Shown: piece after piece, positions 27,001 to 39,000 of the stretch
Layout of the letters: every line of letters starts with the position of its first letter
Numbering within the stretch: the first letter of the stretch is position 1
NCBI RefSeq assembly: GCF_030013205.1
Contig: NZ_CP122648.1
Source: Escherichia coli
Lineage (GTDB): Bacteria; Pseudomonadota; Gammaproteobacteria; Enterobacterales; Enterobacteriaceae
Length of the DNA stretch: 64,000 nucleotides
Reading direction: 5' to 3' (one strand)
Position numbers: made by a program

Positions 27001-30000
27001 CGCTATGTATTGCAGCTAGGAGGCGATTTGGCGCAGTGGAGTAGCAACGCGCAGGATCGCTGGCATCTTGGCGTGATGGCAGGCTACGCCAATCAGCACA
27101 GTAATACTCAGAGTAATCGTGTGGGTTATAAATCGGATGGGCGCATCAGCGGTTACAGCGCAGGACTGTACGCGACCTGGTATCAGAACGATGCGAATAA
27201 GACCGGCGCTTATGTTGACAGCTGGGCGCTGTATAACTGGTTTGATAACAGCGTCAGTTCCGATAACCGTTCTGCTGTCGACTATGATTCTCGCGGTGTG
27301 ACGGCCTCTGTTGAGGGTGGGTATACCTTTGAAGCGGGAACATTTAGCGGCAGCGAAGGGACGCTGAATACCTGGTACGTCCAGCCACAGGCGCAAATCA
27401 CCTGGATGGGTGTGAAAGATTCTGACCATACCCGGAAAGACGGAACACGCATTGAAACGGAAGGCGGCGGAAACGTGCAAACGCGACTTGGGGTGAAAAC
27501 CTACCTGAACAGTCATCACCAGCGTGACAATGGTAAACAGCGTGAGTTCCAGCCTTACATTGAAGCGAACTGGATCAACAACAGCAAAGTCTACGCCGTG
27601 AAGATGAATGGTCAAACCGTAAGCCGTGATGGTGCGCGTAATCTCGGTGAAGTACGTACCGGGGTTGAGGCGAAAGTAAATAACAACCTTAGCCTGTGGG
27701 GGAATGTCGGTGTGCAACTAGGTGATAAAGGCTATAGCGATACTCAGGGCATGCTGGGTGTGAAATATAGCTGGTAAACCGTATAAGCCGCATGTCGAAG
27801 ATGCATGCGGCTTAATATTGCCGACTTCAAACGACTTTTAAATCCTCCTTTTTATCCGCGATCGCGGATATCGCAGCGTTTATCCCGTAGAGCGGATAAG
27901 ATGTGTTTCCATATTGACTTTATCCTCACTAAAGGATAAAACTGATAATATCCCCTTGAGCGGATAAATTTGCTGTGGACGTATGACATGATGAGCTTTC
28001 AGAAGATCTATAGCCCAACGCAATTAGCGAATGCAATGAAACTGGTTCGTCAGCAAAATGGCTGGACGCAGAGCGAGCTGGCGAAAAAAATCGGCATTAA
28101 GCAGGCGACAATTTCCAATTTCGAAAACAACCCTGACAATACCACGCTGACGACATTTTTTAAGATTTTACAGTCGCTTGAACTCTCAATGACGCTATGC
28201 GACACGAAAAATGCCTCGCCAGAATCAACAGAACAGCAAGATCTGGAGTGGTAATGCCTAAACTTGTCACTTGGATGAACAACCAGCGGGTAGGCGAGTT
28301 AACGAAGTTAGCCAATGGCGCGCACACCTTTAAGTATGCACCGGAGTGGTTAGCCAACCGTTATGCCAGACCGTTATCACTTTCGCTGCCATTGCAGAGG
28401 GGGAATATCACCTCTGATGCTGTATTTAACTTCTTCGATAACCTGCTACCCGATAGCCCGATTGTACGTGACCGGATCGTTAAACGTTATCATGCTAAAT
28501 CCAGACAACCGTTTGATTTATTGTCAGAAATAGGGCGAGATAGCGTTGGTGCCGTAACGTTATTACCCGAAAATGAAACCATAACGCGCCCGATAATGGC
28601 ATGGGAACAGCTCACTGAAGCCAGGCTTGAAGAAGTATTAACGGCTTATAAAGCAGATATCCCTCTGGGCATGATTAGAGAAGAAAATGACTTTCGCATC
28701 TCGGTTGCTGGCGCGCAGGAGAAGACAGCGCTGCTCAGAATAGGCAATGACTGGTGCATTCCGAAAGGAATAACGCCGACGACGCACATCATTAAATTAC
28801 CGATTGGCGAAATCAGGCAGCCCAATGCGACGCTCGATCTCAGCCAAAGCGTTGATAATGAGTATTACTGTCTGCTGCTGGCGAAAGAACTTGGGTTGAA
28901 TGTGCCGGACGCAGAAATCATTAAAGCGGGAAATGTGCGCGCGTTAGCGGTCGAACGTTTTGACAGGCGTTGGAATGCTGAGCGAACGGTTTTACTTCGC
29001 TTGCCACAGGAGGATATGTGTCAGACATTCGGTTTACCTTCATCGGTGAAATATGAATCAGATGGAGGCCCAGGCATCGCGCGGATCATGGCTTTTTTGA
29101 TGGGGTCCAGCGAGGCGCTGAAAGATCGCTATGATTTTATGAAGTTTCAGGTGTTCCAGTGGTTGATTGGCGCAACGGATGGCCATGCAAAAAACTTCTC
29201 CGTATTTATTCAGGCTGGCGGCAGTTATCGACTCACGCCATTTTACGACATCATTTCAGCATTTCCGGTATTGGGTGGCGCAGGAATACACATCAGCGAT
29301 CTCAAACTGGCAATGGGGCTTAACGCATCCAAAGGCAAAAAAACGGCAATCGATAAAATTTATCCGCGACATTTTCTGGCGACAGCAAAGGTGCTGAAAT
29401 TTCCGGAAGTGCAGATGCATGAAATCCTGAGTGACTTTGCCAGAATGATTCCGGCAGCACTGGATCATGTGAAGACTTCATTACCGACAGATTTTCCGGA
29501 GAACGTGGTGACGGCAGTTGAAACCAATGTGTTGAGGTTGCATGGACGGTTAAGCCGAGAATACGGTAGTAAGTGAGATATGGGGTTTGGTCGTTGTTAA
29601 TGAGTACGACAATCATGACCGCCAACGACTGGATTCTTCCTTGGTTTATGTTGGTGCGCATAATGTATATTATGTTAAATATGGTGGGTTTGTTCTTAAG
29701 TTCATGTGTTCCGCTCTTTCAGTAGCTTAACTGATGAATCAGTCAGCAGCTTTTGCCGTGCAAGCTACGCGGCGGTTCGTACCAGATTGGCCACCTCCAT
29801 CTCCTGGTTCGCTTTCCCCTCCCCCCGGTAAACCTCACCCAACGTTAATTAATGATGTCAGTATGTGGGCGCTATCCTTGTATGTAAAATCCACTGACGA
29901 TTACGCCCATCTGTGAAAAAAAACTCACAATGCCATTCGATGCATCTCCATACCGAACGAGGCGTTATCGTCTTTATCGCCCCGTAGTGGATATCAGAAA

Positions 30001-36000: not shown

Positions 36001-39000
36001 AAGAAGAAAATTACCCTGGAGCCACAGTTTCTGGGCGACAAACACATCATACCGAATGAACGAACTATCAATAATCTGGTGATCGTCGAAGTAAAGCCTG
36101 AATTTCAGAGCGAATTTAGAAACATCGTCCTTCCTGAAATGGTCGAGTCGCTCAAAGTAGAGAAAGGCGTGTTAGCCATGTATGCCGGTACAGATTCAGA
36201 GACTCCAAAACGCTGGTATTTCTATGAGATTTACGCCAGTGAGGAGGATTATCAACTGCACCGACAAACGCTGCACTTCCTGGATTACCTCAGGCAAACG
36301 GCGCATATGAGCGCCAGGAAGGACGCAATCCCGGTAAAACCGGTATTTCTTCGTAACAAAGGCGGAATCAAACAGGAGCCGCAACGTTGACCAGTAAGGA
36401 TTAACATGAAAAGCGTACTTGCAGCAGCGGCTATGTCGCTTGTTATTTCTGATTTTGCCAATGCTGAGGAAACAAGAGGTAAAGCTATGATGAAAATAGA
36501 ACCGTCAGCGATTTCGGAAGCTGATATTCGTTCCGTCTCACCGGCTCTCGCGCGCTTTGGTCGCGAAGCTATTACTGAAGATCTGTGGACACGCGACGCC
36601 CTCTCACCGAGGGATCGTAGTGTGGTGACCGTCGCCATGCTGATTGCCCGCAACCAGCCTGCCGAGCTTAAGCACTATATTGACGTCGCTCTCGATAGCG
36701 GCGTGACGCCAGCGGAATTATCAGAAATCATTACCCATCTGGCGTTCTACTCAGGTTGGCCAAATGCAATGTCAGCCGTCAGCGTGATCAAAGCAGTATT
36801 TGAAACTCGTGGCGTCACGGCAGATGCACTTCCTGAAGCTTCTCCGGACCTGCTTCCTCTCAATCAGGAAGCAGAAAAGCAGCGTTCAGAGACAGTGGAA
36901 AAAAATGTTGGCCCAATATCTCCAGGCCTGGTTAAATTCACTGCTGATCCACTCTTCCTGGATCTCTGGCAAAGACCCGCGCTGAAACCCCGCGACAGAA
37001 GCCTGATTACGGTCAGCGCCTTAATCGCATCCGGACAGAGCGCGCAGATTGGCTATCACCTCAATAGAGCAATGGATAATGGACTTTCGGTGAGATCGTT
37101 ACCCAGGCCGCCTTCTATGCTGGCTGGCCAAACGCATTTACCGCTGCTCCGGTTGTGGGAGAGGTGCTAAACAATCGATCATCGAGTAAAAGGTAACATT
37201 ACTGAACACTAAAACCTGACGCACATCACAAAATTAGAACGATCAGTTCATGAACCAACAGACGTGACATCGAGTGATTTATGGACAGCGTTTAACACAG
37301 TTATGAACCAAAACTGAGTTCATAACTGTGAGTTTGAATCGTCATTTGATTAATATCCATTTAAAACAGTTTGTTATGCTGTTTCTGGTGCTGAAGTCAA
37401 TTATGTATATCCCTCAAACCCAGAATAGTTAAATGGAATTTGAGTGATGCGAAGCGATTTTACGGTCGTCGTTATTACTTCAGGGTTCCAGAACATAAAG
37501 CCTCTCCTCTTTCATGATTGGCCTGTGCATACCTGATATAGGCTGGCTGGTATGCAGGTTTGCCGTTTGCCGCATCTTCCCTGCGTTGAAGAGTCAGGCT
37601 GGCAAACCGCGTGCAAATGAACACCCCCTCTTTCCATCAACAATTCAGACAGCTTGCGGGAATGAGTCCACTCCGGTATCAGAAATGGCTACGCCTCAAT
37701 GAAGCCAGGCGACTGATGCTGAATGAACATTACGATGTCACCACTGCAGCCTATGCTGTCGGTTACGAAAGCTTATCCCATTTCAGTCGGGAATATTCGC
37801 GGATGTTTGGAGAGTCACCTAAGAGAGATATTACCAGGTTAAGAAAGTCTGTCGGTCAGCTTTAATAAACCCTGCACTTATCTGTTTAGAGCAATTCCGT
37901 GTTAGTTACACCAGGCAAACATTAACCATAGCTAATGTTTTATAGCCATATAAACCATTGGCCGCTCTTGACCTTTCCTGACACTTCCCTTGTTCGCAAT
38001 AATATTCTGTTTAGTCGCTGTTTATAAATAACATGCATAATGAAATCGTAATGTTATTTAGCGACATAAAATGTCTTTGCAAATACTCTCTACAACAAGT
38101 GCTGCAATAAACTTGTTGTGATTAGGTGTCCTTGTAATTTAAAGATATTATCGTTCTTCGTGAAATGTAATAACCCTGGAACTATATTCTCAGGGCAATA
38201 TCCCATCAAGAATGATTCTTGTTTTATAAGCAATAACAGAATGACTTAATTGTTAACTTTCTTTATTCAGCTACTTAAATATAAATTTTGGAGAATTATG
38301 AAACTCAAACATGTCGGTATGATTGTCGTTTCTGTGTTGGCGATGTCGTCTGCTGCGGTAAGCGCAGCCGAGGGTGATGAATCAGTAACGACCACTGTTA
38401 ATGGCGGTGTTATTCATTTTAAAGGTGAAGTGGTAAATGCCGCTTGTGCGATTGATTCAGAATCAATGAACCAAACGGTTGAGCTGGGTCAGGTCCGTTC
38501 TTCTCGTCTGGCTAAAGCGGGTGACCTCAGCTCCGCCGTTGGCTTCAATATCAAGCTGAATGATTGTGATACCAATGTTTCCAGTAATGCAGCTGTTGCA
38601 TTCCTGGGTACTACTGTCACCAGTAATGACGACACATTAGCGCTTCAGAGTTCAGCGGCAGGCTCTGCCCAAAATGTCGGTATTCAAATTTTGGACCGTA
38701 CGGGTGAGGTATTAATACTTGATGGTGCCACTTTTAGTGCTAAAACTGACTTGATTGATGGCACGAATATATTGCCGTTCCAGGCTAGATATATTGCTCT
38801 CGGGCAGTCAGTAGCTGGTACTGCAAACGCTGATGCGACCTTCAAAGTTCAATATCTATAATTCAATCTTAAGGTGGCTATACGTCATCTGAAATTGAAA
38901 CAGGGTGTGTGTGGCATGGCTACGCACACCCGAGCAATTCACCAATGTTCATCTCATTATTAATGAGGAATAGTTTGTGTTTTGGAGCGGTATGAAAAAA

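What the first reader, a model, noticed from the sequence alone, without database searches (positions are those of the whole stretch)
29577..37610. Roughly 8 kb accessory islet between hipA and the yneL remnant: LysR-controlled cluster of redox/detox enzymes, partly decayed
In K-12, as I recall it, hipA is followed almost directly by the yneL remnant and the truncated fimbrial genes. Here the gap holds a divergent LysR regulator and a same-strand array: small Dabb/MLI-like protein, DJ-1/PfpI, aldo-keto reductase, amidohydrolase-2 remnant, MdaB-like quinone reductase, a second aldo-keto reductase, tandem-ABM protein and tandem-CMD protein. The combination of an MdaB-like reductase with a YgiN-like ABM protein, DJ-1, AKRs and AhpD-like CMD domains suggests a quinone/electrophile or aromatic-intermediate detoxification module, but the islet as a unit is not a system I can name. 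Three of its genes carry frameshifts or deletions, so it may be mid-decay.
Basis: partly seen in the sequence, partly recalled or inferred. Interest (0 to 1): 0.7.

Follow-up and report, generated by a model that had tools for sequence, protein, structure and literature searches.

The report
Detox operon island docked at dif
The 8-kb islet is real, but it is best read as the recombinase-less remnant of a mobile island that inserts beside the chromosome's dimer-resolution site (dif); it carries a LysR-controlled redox/detox operon taken from an Enterobacter-like genome, and that operon is partly broken in this strain.

Summary
Between hipA and the yneL remnant lies a 7.75-kb accessory segment (window 29681-37434). 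It carries a divergent LysR gene and eight same-strand genes, three of them damaged. It occurs in about 8% of complete E. coli genomes.

1. The islet starts at the base after a perfect 28-bp dif site (29653-29680). It is bracketed by a 7-bp direct repeat, GTTAAAT, which is the outer end of the XerD arm, and by 12-13-bp inverted repeats.

2. The same two ends flank islands that carry a four-gene tyrosine-recombinase operon distantly related to GinABC of GInt elements. These islands lie directly against dif in E. coli, Enterobacter, Erwinia and Tatumella, and against a dif-like site on an E. coli plasmid. The islet is therefore most likely a cargo-only relic of a dif-targeting GInt-type island. 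It does not fit a Xer-dependent IMEX.

3. The nine-gene array is a conserved, uncharacterised operon in Enterobacter, Dickeya and Pectobacterium, with a shorter form in Klebsiella.

All E. coli copies share one amidohydrolase deletion. The LysR and CMD lesions are confined to a few swine lineages. A role in quinone or phenolic-electrophile detoxification is inferred, not shown.

The parts
28254..29576 (+). hipA (chromosomal left flank, context only)
   Evidence: RefSeq annotation of the identical record, converted from locus L001 coordinates; ORF.
29653..29680 (+). dif, the chromosome dimer-resolution site: XerC arm GGTGCGCATAA, central TGTATA, XerD arm TTATGTTAAAT
   Evidence: A single perfect match in the 64-kb window, with 0 expected by chance. 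dif lies in the yneL-hipA intergenic region of K-12 (bioRxiv 10.1101/2025.09.02.673814). KOPS polarity switches exactly here.
29674..29680 (+). attL copy of the 7-bp crossover core GTTAAAT, the outer end of the XerD arm
   Evidence: Direct repeat with 37428-37434; empty-site genomes carry one copy.
29681..29746 (+). Left end of the GInt-type island family, including the terminal inverted repeat ATGGTGGGTTTG (29681-29692)
   Evidence: 88-98% identical to the sequence between dif and the GinA-like gene in E. coli L014/L016/L032, plasmid L017, Enterobacter L021, Erwinia L024 and Tatumella L025. The inverted repeat I11 was found independently.
29747..29973 (.). Non-coding filler. 29830-29942 is a 113-bp fragment homologous to DNA about 5.5 kb upstream of the cassette on the Enterobacter mori plasmid. 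29730-29973 is missing in some E. coli, for example GPEC856.
   Evidence: BLASTN. The left segment is present at 80% coverage or more in 455 genomes.
29974..30871 (-). LysR-family regulator, a pseudogene in this strain (2-bp deletion near 30406)
   Evidence: Split ORFs; annotated as frameshifted. The intact 299-aa orthologue in L002 matches LysR models. The indel was mapped; the lesion allele occurs in 11 genomes.
30872..31010 (.). Divergent control region: LTTR box TTA-N9-TAA (30904-30918) and a conserved -10-like TATACT (30965-30970)
   Evidence: 88% mean identity across E. coli, Enterobacter, Dickeya, Pectobacterium and Klebsiella, higher than for the genes themselves; motif coordinates.
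31011..31319 (+). 102-aa YCII / muconolactone-isomerase-like protein, first gene of the operon and very strongly conserved
31328..32017 (+). DJ-1/PfpI protein of the Hsp31 / glyoxalase III type, with the Cys-His motif (AVCHGP) present
   Evidence: NCBIfam HchA and PfpI hits. PDB relatives are YDR533c/Hsp31 and Glx3. Motif read from the translation.
32079..33026 (+). Aldo-keto reductase 1
   Evidence: NCBIfam YdjG-like, E 8e-34; annotation.
33129..33805 (+). Amidohydrolase-2 remnant from the hydroxybenzoate-decarboxylase subgroup: 356-bp deletion at 33262 and 2-bp deletion at 33613
   Evidence: tblastn and nucleotide alignment to the intact 344-aa Enterobacter gene. The closest solved relatives of that intact 344-aa Enterobacter protein are 3NUR, LigW, and the 2,3-DHB, gamma-resorcylate and salicylate decarboxylases. 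The deleted segment is absent from all 5426 E. coli genomes.
33955..34527 (+). Flavodoxin_2 NAD(P)H (quinone) oxidoreductase, KefF/YwrO-like
   Evidence: NCBIfam KefF E 6e-44, below the curated cut-off. PDB: KefF 2.6e-31, GSP14 1.4e-30, MdaB 7.5e-16, NQO1 about 1e-15.
34530..35549 (+). Aldo-keto reductase 2
   Evidence: NCBIfam hits; annotation.
35665..36390 (+). Tandem-ABM protein with a predicted Sec signal peptide (VKKTFMLLICMLISSPVFA|TKPD)
   Evidence: Pfam 2x ABM. The N-terminal signal is conserved in Enterobacter, Dickeya, Pectobacterium and Archangium. The export prediction comes from reading the sequence, not from a dedicated predictor.
36406..37196 (+). Tandem-CMD (PcaC-like, no CxxC) protein with a predicted signal peptide; a pseudogene here (13-bp deletion near 37089)
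   Evidence: Pfam 2x CMD on the intact L002 orthologue. PDB 4G9Q, E 3e-73. The indel was mapped; the lesion allele occurs in 24 genomes. Signal or lipobox conserved.
37243..37427 (+). 3' end of the GInt-type island family, including the terminal inverted repeat CAAACCCAGAATA (37415-37427) and a gapped dif-like stretch (37385-37427)
   Evidence: Homology to Enterobacter stops at 37242. The same right end is found in E. coli L014/L016/L032 and in Tatumella L025, which has a different chromosomal flank.
37428..37434 (+). attR copy of the 7-bp core GTTAAAT
37599..37865 (+). yneL-type AraC-family C-terminal remnant (chromosomal right flank, context only)
   Evidence: Annotation; NCBIfam AraC-family HTH hits.

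Best explanation
Window 29681-37434 is the recombinase-less relic of a GInt-type genomic island, that is, an island moved by a four-gene operon that includes three tyrosine-recombinase-like proteins.

This island family integrates by conservative site-specific recombination at a 7-bp core, GTTAAAT, which is the outermost part of the XerD-binding arm of dif. The host dif is therefore rebuilt intact at attL, and a second core copy sits at attR. The inferred circular junction is CAAACCCAGAATA-GTTAAAT-ATGGTGGGTTTG, with inverted arms around the core.

The cargo is a LysR-activated operon of eight genes captured from an Enterobacter-like genome:
- a YCII/MLI-like protein;
- an Hsp31-type DJ-1 protein;
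- two aldo-keto reductases;
- a hydroxybenzoate-decarboxylase-type amidohydrolase;
- a KefF/NQO-like flavin quinone reductase;
- an exported tandem-ABM protein;
- an exported tandem-CMD protein.

Inferred mechanism: a quinone, hydroquinone or phenolic electrophile, probably plant-derived, is sensed by the LysR protein bound at the TTA-N9-TAA box. The induced cytoplasmic enzymes reduce quinones and reactive carbonyls and remove glyoxals. The two exported proteins act on related compounds in the periplasm.

In E. coli the island arrived once, already lacking a functional decarboxylase, and lost its recombinase operon. In this swine ETEC lineage the activator and the CMD gene are also broken, so the operon is probably silent and decaying.

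Shown: the anatomy, the junctions, dif targeting by the element family, operon conservation, the domain and fold assignments, and the distribution of the lesions.

Inferred: the recombination chemistry, the direction of transfer, the inducer, the substrates, export, and silence of the operon in this strain.
For: Location and ends:
- A perfect dif lies at 29653-29680 and the islet starts at 29681.
- There is a 7-bp direct repeat and 18-nt terminal inverted repeats that are 83% complementary.
- Empty sites read dif followed directly by the yneL flank.

Link to GInt-type islands:
- The same left and right ends bound islands that carry a four-gene operon of 507, 556-558, 845 and 158 aa in E. coli 2017-19-1CC, SH21PTE31 and D2.
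- The first three proteins are collinearly similar to GinA, GinB and GinC of a listed E. coli GInt (E 7.6e-9, 4.6e-10, 1.3e-7). No protein matched the SE proteins at E<0.1; the best was p2 vs Srap at E 0.36.
- PHROG and NCBIfam integrase hits support p1 and p2. R...HxxR...Y motifs are visible in the sequences.

dif targeting:
- The element abuts the XerD arm of dif in Enterobacter cloacae, Erwinia and Tatumella, and of a dif-like site on a 268-kb plasmid, with unrelated upstream flanks. In a Vibrio relative it abuts a perfect XerD arm whose XerC side is not canonical.
- Tatumella has the matching right end next to a different chromosomal flank.
- The published GInt hallmarks are a 5' gin operon, variable cargo, a short conserved 3' end, imperfect direct repeats, about 6-nt staggered cuts and high site specificity (PMC5385486; PMC10214605).

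Cargo:
- The array is conserved at 92-83% identity, with an intact amidohydrolase, in Enterobacter, Dickeya, Pectobacterium and an E. mori plasmid. A reduced core is present in K. pneumoniae.
- The control region holding the LTTR box is conserved.
- The same gene guild accompanies the YCII-like gene in Duganella and Archangium.
- Export signals are conserved.

Decay.
Against: - No element was found that carries both the recombinase operon and the full cassette. The link rests on shared ends and on a 49-bp CMD 3' remnant kept by all gin-positive elements.
- The islet's ends are 10-20% diverged from those of the gin-positive elements seen.
- Similarity to Gin proteins is weak (about 23-36% identity locally). 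Pfam Phage_integrase hits are sub-threshold, and p4 has no detectable GinD similarity.
- The element is not listed in the GInt/SE survey files I could search. One of those files is truncated, and in the one genome checked there an IS splits the operon.
- The right end also holds a gapped dif-like stretch whose role is unexplained.
- No experimental or literature evidence bears on inducer, substrates or export.
- The NCBI name 'superoxide dismutase' for orthologues of the small protein is not backed by any model.
Confidence: 0.7

Rival explanations
1. The islet is an IMEX: a module with no recombinase of its own that the host XerCD recombinases integrated at dif. Known examples are EludIMEX-1, the gonococcal genetic island and CTX-phi.
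For: It lies directly against dif and encodes no recombinase. The right end contains TGTATA, an 11-mer matching dif at 10 of 11 positions (ATTATGTATAT) and GGTGC, which together form a gapped dif look-alike. IMEXs carrying cargo genes are known in Enterobacter (PMC5357621).
Against: The junctions lie at the outer 7 bp of the XerD arm, not in the central region where Xer crossover occurs. Xer excision from the look-alike would leave a defective dif, which is not what empty sites show. No ungapped dif-like site with 10 or fewer mismatches exists at the right end. Elements with identical ends encode their own GinABC-like recombinases and sit at the same position in several genera.
Confidence: 0.07
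2. The segment is ancestral to E. coli, or entered by illegitimate recombination, and most strains lost it by microhomology-mediated deletion between two GTTAAAT copies. On this view its position beside dif only reflects terminus-region plasticity.
For: A 7-bp repeat is enough for RecA-independent deletion. Both flank alleles, CATGTCTGAG and TTAATTTGAG/GGAATTTGAG, occur in occupied and empty states. Other insertions cluster here.
Against: Only about 8% of genomes carry it. It is 92% identical to Enterobacter DNA and includes a fragment of the Enterobacter neighbourhood. All E. coli copies share one amidohydrolase deletion, which points to a single entry. Precisely the same inverted-repeat ends occur with recombinase genes at dif in unrelated genera and on a plasmid. 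Chance microhomology does not explain that.
Confidence: 0.08
3. Rival for function: the cassette is a fragment of an aromatic catabolic route and not a stress-detoxification module. Hydroxybenzoate would be decarboxylated to catechol, hydroquinone or resorcinol, and lactone or quinone intermediates would then be processed.
For: The intact amidohydrolase groups with the LigW, 2,3-DHB, gamma-resorcylate and salicylate decarboxylases. The CMD protein is PcaC-like. The small protein folds like ClcF and TftG. Dienelactone hydrolase accompanies the family in Duganella.
Against: No ring-cleavage dioxygenase, cycloisomerase, enol-lactonase or transporter is present in any version seen. The Klebsiella core lacks the decarboxylase altogether. 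E. coli has kept the rest of the operon without the decarboxylase. Quinone reductase, AKRs and glyoxalase III are typical protective enzymes.
Confidence: 0.2

Closest known systems
GInt genomic islands (ginABCD; Bardaji et al. 2017, PMC5385486)
   Same: Elements with the same ends as the islet have a four-gene recombinase operon at the 5' end, variable cargo, a short conserved 3' end, imperfect flanking repeats and strict site specificity. Their proteins are collinearly similar to GinA, GinB and GinC.
   Different: The islet itself has no gin genes. The family is highly diverged (about 23% identity to an E. coli GinA). The fourth protein shows no GinD similarity. The target is the XerD-arm end of dif or of plasmid dif-like sites, whereas ssb and other gene ends were reported for GInts. 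No paper in the searchable library links GInts to dif.
IMEX elements (CTX-phi, GGI, EludIMEX-1/EcloIMEX)
   Same: They integrate at dif and leave a functional dif on one side. They can carry adaptive cargo in Enterobacterales.
   Different: IMEXs rely on XerCD and recombine within the dif central region with a dif-like attP. Here the crossover core is the outer 7 bp of the XerD arm, and relatives encode their own recombinases.
IS1202-family insertion sequences that target dif/pdif (ISAjo2, ISKpn21; PMC10132070)
   Same: This is another mobile-element family that homes to Xer sites. ISKpn21/ISNCY copies sit on the XerC side of the very same sites: L017, and also L003 and L015.
   Different: They are DDE-type IS elements on the XerC side with a 5-bp duplication, not tyrosine-recombinase islands on the XerD side.
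[quoted passage not shown]
   Same: A four-gene operon at the left end, 13-19-bp imperfect inverted repeats, a 6-bp spacer and target specificity.
   Different: No similarity below E 0.1 to SE IntA, Tfp, IntB or Srap (best p2 vs Srap, E 0.36); the gene order matches GInt and not SE.
Orthologous uncharacterised operons in Enterobacter, Dickeya and Pectobacterium, and the reduced LysR-YCII-Flavodoxin_2-AKR-CMD cluster of Klebsiella pneumoniae
   Same: Same genes, order and control region at 81-92% nucleotide identity.
   Different: In those genera the array is not next to dif within 10 kb, and the amidohydrolase is intact in Enterobacter, Dickeya and E. mori. E. coli has the decayed, GInt-borne copy.
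E. coli MdaB-YgiN quinone redox pair
   Same: A Flavodoxin_2 NAD(P)H quinone-reductase fold together with an ABM-fold protein.
   Different: The reductase is closer to KefF and YwrO than to MdaB. The ABM protein is a two-domain, signal-peptide-bearing protein, unlike the single-domain cytoplasmic YgiN.

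Membership tests
GInt | ginABCD operon (three tyrosine-recombinase-like proteins plus a small protein) at the 5' end of the element | tested here: not met
   There are no gin-like genes in the islet or anywhere in the 64-kb window (tblastn). Elements with the same ends (L014, L032) do have such an operon. The islet is therefore a derivative, not a complete GInt.
GInt | Sequence relationship of the recombinase proteins of the same-ended elements to GinA, GinB, GinC and GinD | tested here: inconclusive
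   p1 vs GinA E 7.6e-9; p2 vs GinB E 4.6e-10; p3 vs GinC E 1.3e-7, all collinear; p4 has no hit to GinD. Pfam Phage_integrase hits are sub-threshold. PHROG and NCBIfam integrase hits are significant.
GInt | Site-specific insertion flanked by imperfect direct repeats of 10-17 nt, with a short conserved 3' end | tested here: met
   TTATGTTAAAT at attL against AATAGTTAAAT at attR (7 of the 11 positions, the GTTAAAT core, are identical). The 3' end is conserved in E. coli and Tatumella, and the target position is the same in at least four genera and on a plasmid.
GInt | Excision to a circular intermediate and re-integration that depend on the gin genes | not testable with these tools
   Needs PCR and genetic assays.
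IMEX | Integrated at dif, leaving a functional dif | tested here: met
   A perfect dif immediately precedes the islet.
IMEX | A dif-like attP with XerC and XerD arms, so that the element is bounded by dif and a dif-like site recombined in the central region | tested here: not met
   There is no second ungapped dif-like site with 10 or fewer mismatches. The duplicated core is the outer 7 bp of the XerD arm.
IMEX | No element-encoded recombinase in the family; dependence on XerCD | tested here: not met
   Same-ended relatives encode three recombinase-like proteins. Xer dependence itself cannot be tested here.
Strand-biased circularizing integrative elements (SE) | Homologues of IntA, Tfp, IntB and Srap | tested here: not met
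   No BLASTP hit below E 0.1 to the SE proteins of E. coli ABWA45; the best was p2 vs Srap at E 0.36.
LysR-type regulated operon | A divergently transcribed LTTR (HTH_1 plus LysR_substrate) and a T-N11-A box in the shared control region | tested here: met
   The intact orthologue matches LTTR models and Pfam domains are on record for orthologues. TTA-N9-TAA at 30904-30918 is conserved in five genera. In this strain the regulator is frameshifted.
MdaB/YgiN quinone redox cycle | Orthology to MdaB and to the single-domain cytoplasmic YgiN | tested here: not met
   The best NCBIfam hit is KefF, below the cut-off, and no MdaB model is hit. In the PDB search KefF scores 2.6e-31 against 7.5e-16 for MdaB. 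The ABM protein has tandem domains and a signal peptide.
Beta-ketoadipate / chlorocatechol catabolic pathway | Ring-cleavage dioxygenase, cycloisomerase and enol-lactone hydrolase together with the CMD/MLI steps | tested here: not met
   None of these is present in the islet or in orthologous clusters.
Acinetobacter-type dif modules | Cargo flanked by two inversely oriented XerC-XerD (pdif) sites | tested here: not met
   Only one Xer site is present.

The most novel reading that the evidence does not exclude
A previously undescribed branch of GInt-type islands uses its own recombinases to dock onto the last 7 bp of the XerD arm of dif and of plasmid dif-like sites. The islands regenerate an intact dif and repeatedly deliver redox/electrophile-defence cargo to the replication terminus of Enterobacterales, and probably of Vibrio. 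Because both terminal repeats of the window's islet are intact, it would be a non-autonomous member that gin-positive relatives could still mobilise in trans. Its lead gene would encode a new, extremely conserved YCII-like enzyme acting on quinone or hydroquinone substrates.
Probability: 0.4. Interest if true: 0.75.

Novelty: new variant of a known kind. Interest (0 to 1): 0.6.

Why it matters
dif is essential for chromosome segregation and is already known as a landing pad for Xer-dependent phages and islands and for IS1202-family insertion sequences. A recombinase-encoding island family that copies the end of the XerD arm would be a third, mechanistically distinct way to exploit this site. 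It would explain why the hipA-yneL gap is a pangenome hot spot in E. coli: about 8% of complete genomes carry this cassette and about 2% carry recombinase-positive relatives with other redox cargo.

The idea is directly testable, because attL, attR, the inferred attI and the candidate recombinases are all defined here.

The cargo is a conserved, completely uncharacterised LysR regulon. It is found in Enterobacter, in Klebsiella (where the reduced core lies in what looks like a chromosomal context) and in several plant-associated genera. It contains a strongly conserved 102-aa protein of unknown function and two exported cofactor-independent-fold proteins. It is a reasonable candidate for quinone or phenolic stress defence in the gut or on plants.

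For this particular strain the practical conclusion is modest: the module is probably inactive.

Tried and rejected
- IMEX hypothesis. An ungapped scan for a second dif found nothing within 10 mismatches. The position of the junction argues against Xer crossover. I kept it as a minor rival.
- dif near the cassette in other genera. None lies within 10 kb in Enterobacter, Dickeya or Pectobacterium, so the cassette itself is not tied to dif.
- SE membership. No similarity below E 0.1; the best was p2 vs Srap at E 0.36.
- Look-up of the recombinase proteins and accessions in the supplements of PMC10214605. They are not listed. One file is truncated, and in the single informative genome the operon is split by an IS, so the result is uninformative.
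- Strain 19A14 as a possible longer ancestral islet. It turned out to be a further-deleted version.
- Search for an element carrying both the gin operon and the full cassette. None was found among the loci inspected.
- Literature searches for the gene combination, for the protein accessions and for a basis for the 'superoxide dismutase' name. Nothing relevant turned up.
- Rfam scan of the islet. No match.
- Promoter and terminator consensus scans. Counts were no higher than in shuffled sequence, so they are uninformative.
- PMC5426353, on RecA-independent deletion of a small island. It does not concern dif.

Full report
**1. What is there**

The window is identical over 29400-37900 to E. coli ETEC1748 (NZ_CP122719, a swine isolate). 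Mechanical ORFs and the RefSeq annotation give this order:

- hipB-hipA;
- a frameshifted LysR gene on the minus strand (29974-30871);
- on the plus strand, a 102-aa hypothetical protein, a DJ-1/PfpI protein, an aldo-keto reductase, three amidohydrolase fragments, an NAD(P)H oxidoreductase, a second aldo-keto reductase, a 'putative quinol monooxygenase' and a frameshifted carboxymuconolactone-decarboxylase-family gene;
- the truncated AraC-type yneL remnant and fimbrial genes.

**2. Domain checks**

- NCBIfam supports LysR, Hsp31/PfpI-type DJ-1, two AKRs, ABM and PcaC-like CMD.
- Pfam gives two ABM and two CMD domains.
- The reductase belongs to Flavodoxin_2 but is KefF/YwrO-like and not MdaB-like. 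KefF scores 149 bits, below the curated cut-off. In the PDB search KefF scores 2.6e-31 against 7.5e-16 for MdaB.
- The intact Enterobacter amidohydrolase groups with non-oxidative hydroxybenzoate decarboxylases: LigW and the 2,3-dihydroxybenzoate, gamma-resorcylate and salicylate decarboxylases.
- The DJ-1 protein is of the yeast Hsp31 / glyoxalase III type.
- The tandem CMD protein matches the structural-genomics entry 4G9Q and has no cysteine pair, so it is not AhpD-like.
- NCBI labels many orthologues of the small protein 'superoxide dismutase'. I found no model or paper behind that name.

**3. Distribution and decay**

- The islet is present at 80% coverage or more in 429 of 5426 complete E. 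coli genomes.
- The empty junction is present in at least 3672 genomes.
- The E. coli amidohydrolase carries a 356-bp deletion and a 2-bp deletion relative to Enterobacter. No E. coli genome retains the deleted segment. All E. coli copies therefore descend from one copy that was already damaged.
- The 2-bp LysR deletion and the 13-bp CMD deletion seen in the window occur in only 11 and 24 genomes, the listed examples being swine isolates. Other strains have intact genes.
- Further-deleted versions exist, for example in strain 19A14.

**4. The cassette elsewhere**

- The same nine genes in the same order, with an intact 344-aa Amidohydro_2 gene, occur in Enterobacter bugandensis (92% nucleotide identity), Dickeya zeae (87-90%, next to T4SS and ccdAB remnants) and on a 214-kb Enterobacter mori plasmid (about 91%). 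Pectobacterium peruviense has the array without the amidohydrolase (about 83%).
- Klebsiella pneumoniae carries a reduced core of LysR, the YCII-like gene, Flavodoxin_2, AKR and tandem CMD. I saw it in a record typed as a plasmid whose context looks chromosomal.
- Homology to Enterobacter spans window 29947-37242. A separate 113-bp piece (29830-29942) matches DNA about 5.5 kb upstream of the cassette in E. mori. This suggests capture of a longer Enterobacter-type segment followed by an internal deletion.
- The LysR-operon control region is 88% identical across five genera. It contains a TTA-N9-TAA LTTR box (30904-30918) and a conserved TATACT (30965-30970).
- In Duganella and Archangium the YCII-like gene again follows a divergent LysR gene. 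There it sits with DJ-1, Amidohydro_2, ABM, AKR, CMD, dienelactone hydrolase or zinc-ADH genes.
- The tandem-ABM and tandem-CMD proteins carry N-terminal export signals that are conserved from Enterobacterales to Archangium, where the CMD protein has a lipobox. I read these signals from the sequence; no dedicated predictor was available.

**5. The junctions: the main new result**

The sequence immediately left of the islet is GGTGCGCATAA-TGTATA-TTATGTTAAAT, a perfect dif at 29653-29680. In K-12, dif lies in the yneL-hipA intergenic region (bioRxiv 10.1101/2025.09.02.673814). KOPS motifs in the window flip orientation exactly there.

Comparison with empty-site genomes shows that the insert begins at 29681 and ends with a second GTTAAAT at 37428-37434. 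Just inside the two core copies lie inverted repeats, ATGGTGGGTTTG on the left and CAAACCCAGAATA on the right. The repeat finder reports them independently (I11).

Joined head to tail, the ends would read CAAACCCAGAATA-GTTAAAT-ATGGTGGGTTTG. That is the layout of a tyrosine-recombinase core site: inverted arms around a 7-bp core.

**6. Whose ends are they?**

Strain 2017-19-1CC has a 30-kb island at the same position. It shares the first 66 bp after dif and the right end, although the flanking DNA is only about 82% identical. Directly after the left end it encodes four overlapping genes of 507, 556-558, 845 and 158 aa. The operon occurs in 121 E. coli genomes, mostly at this locus, and on some large plasmids. 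Strains SH21PTE31 and D2 show the same architecture with other cargo.

I compared these proteins with reference elements from E. coli ABWA45 that are listed in the supplement of PMC10214605:

- the first three are collinearly similar to GinA, GinB and GinC (E 7.6e-9, 4.6e-10, 1.3e-7);
- no hit to the SE proteins fell below E 0.1; the best was p2 vs Srap at E 0.36;
- PHROG and NCBIfam integrase models hit p1 and p2;
- Pfam's Phage_integrase model is only sub-threshold;
- R...HxxR...Y motifs are visible in the sequences.

The described GInt anatomy is a 5' ginABCD operon, variable cargo, a short conserved 3' end, imperfect flanking repeats, about 6-nt staggered cuts, nucleotide changes next to the core after recombination, and strict site choice (PMC5385486; PMC10214605). 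That anatomy fits these elements.

**7. Is dif really the target?**

A scan of species-representative genomes with the GinA-like protein found six loci. The results are:

- In Enterobacter cloacae, Erwinia sp. and Tatumella saanichensis the element's left end directly follows ...TGTATA-TTATGTTAAAT of a dif site, with unrelated upstream DNA.
- A Vibrio relative at 63% identity follows a perfect XerD arm.
- A Citrobacter contig shows what looks like a tandem junction.

Tatumella also has the matching right end next to a different chromosomal flank.

On a 268-kb E. coli plasmid the element follows AGTGCGCATAA-GATGGA-TTATGTTAAAT. This is a plasmid dif-like site with an ISKpn21 copy on its XerC side. 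ISKpn21 is known to insert 5 bp from the XerC side of such sites (PMC10132070).

The family therefore homes to the XerD-arm end of Xer sites and leaves the site intact. I found no paper that connects GInts with dif. The searchable library is incomplete, so this is weak evidence of novelty.

**8. How the islet relates to these elements**

The window has no gin-like gene, so the islet is not a GInt by definition. It has both ends of the family.

Every gin-positive element I inspected (three E. coli strains and Tatumella) keeps the same 49-bp 3' fragment of the CMD gene, starting at window 37122, next to the 3' end. The simplest reading is that an ancestral element carried the cassette. One lineage then lost the recombinase operon (the window type), and others lost most of the cassette.

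Two caveats apply. I found no element with both parts. The window's ends are also 10-20% diverged from those of the gin-positive elements.

**9. Function (inference)**

The content comprises a two-electron quinone reductase, two carbonyl reductases, a glyoxalase III-type DJ-1 protein, a hydroxybenzoate decarboxylase, a TftG/ClcF-like small protein and ABM- and CMD-fold proteins. There is no ring-cleavage enzyme or transporter. The host range is rich in plant-associated genera. Together these features point to a LysR-activated defence against quinone, hydroquinone or phenolic electrophiles, and not to a catabolic pathway.

Other islands of this family at dif also carry redox and electrophile genes: OsmC, alkene reductase, nitroreductase, AKRs, CMD and flavodoxin.

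No experiment or publication supports a specific inducer or substrate. In this strain the activator is frameshifted, so the operon is probably not inducible.

**10. Verdict**

The islet is an ordinary kind of cargo, an uncharacterised LysR redox operon shared with other Enterobacterales. It sits in an unusual vehicle: a decayed member of a GInt-type island family that targets dif. I rate it a new variant of a known kind, of moderate to good interest mainly because of the dif-targeting mechanism, which can be tested directly.

Noticed in passing
L003 (E. coli 54214) 3255-6021 and L015 (19A14); corresponds to window ~29648-29652: In some strains a SIR2-family gene plus a truncated ISNCY (IS1202-group) transposase is inserted between hipA and dif, ending a few bases from the XerC arm. 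This fits the published dif targeting by IS1202-family elements. The SIR2 gene may be a defence gene carried along with the IS.
   Followed up: partly
window 242-63138 (KOPS positions); islet copies at 29817, 31034, 32869: GGGNAGGG motifs lie only on the + strand left of dif (4 copies) and only on the - strand right of it (7 copies). The foreign islet contributes three, all in the permissive orientation, where about 0.5 per strand is expected. Only one of the three is shared with the Enterobacter copy.
   Followed up: partly
window 37385-37434: The island's right end contains a gapped dif look-alike: GGTGC...CAATTA TGTATA T...GTTAAAT. The 11-mer ATTATGTATAT is conserved in alleles whose surrounding DNA is only 77-82% identical. 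Its role is unknown.
   Followed up: partly
L014 (E. coli 2017-19-1CC), L016 (SH21PTE31), L032 (D2): Recombinase-positive islands at the same dif position carry other cargo. This includes nitroreductase, AKRs, CMD, flavodoxin, OsmC, alkene reductase, DsbA, a RamA-like regulator and a two-component system, as well as defence-like genes (a SIR2-family protein and large ATPases).
   Followed up: partly
L011 (plasmid pE102651_74) 13551-14026; PLSDB hits H97-H103: Short remnants of the cassette (parts of the reductase, ABM and CMD genes, about 91% identity) are scattered on E. coli and Klebsiella plasmids. In pE102651_74 they lie next to type IV pilus genes and an ANR-family regulator.
   Followed up: no
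L032 (E. coli D2) ~19971-19998: The dif site of this GInt-carrying E. coli starts with A (AGTGCGCATAA...), as in Tatumella and the plasmid site, and not with the canonical G. It may be a trace of imported flanking DNA.
   Followed up: no
L020 (Citrobacter sp.) ~6440-6480: The element's left end is preceded by ...CTAAACATAA-GTTAAAT and not by a dif. This looks like the right end of another element, so tandem integration is possible.
   Followed up: no
window 23482-27777 and ~39976-42627: The ECSE_1600-family autotransporter upstream of hipBA is annotated as frameshifted in this strain, and the fimbrial usher downstream as incomplete. Gene decay around the terminus is therefore not limited to the islet.
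   Followed up: no
window 31011-31319 and orthologues (P0130-P0237): NCBI and UniRef name many orthologues of the 102-aa YCII-like protein 'superoxide dismutase', although no Pfam or NCBIfam model matches it. The E. coli copy is annotated as hypothetical.
   Followed up: partly
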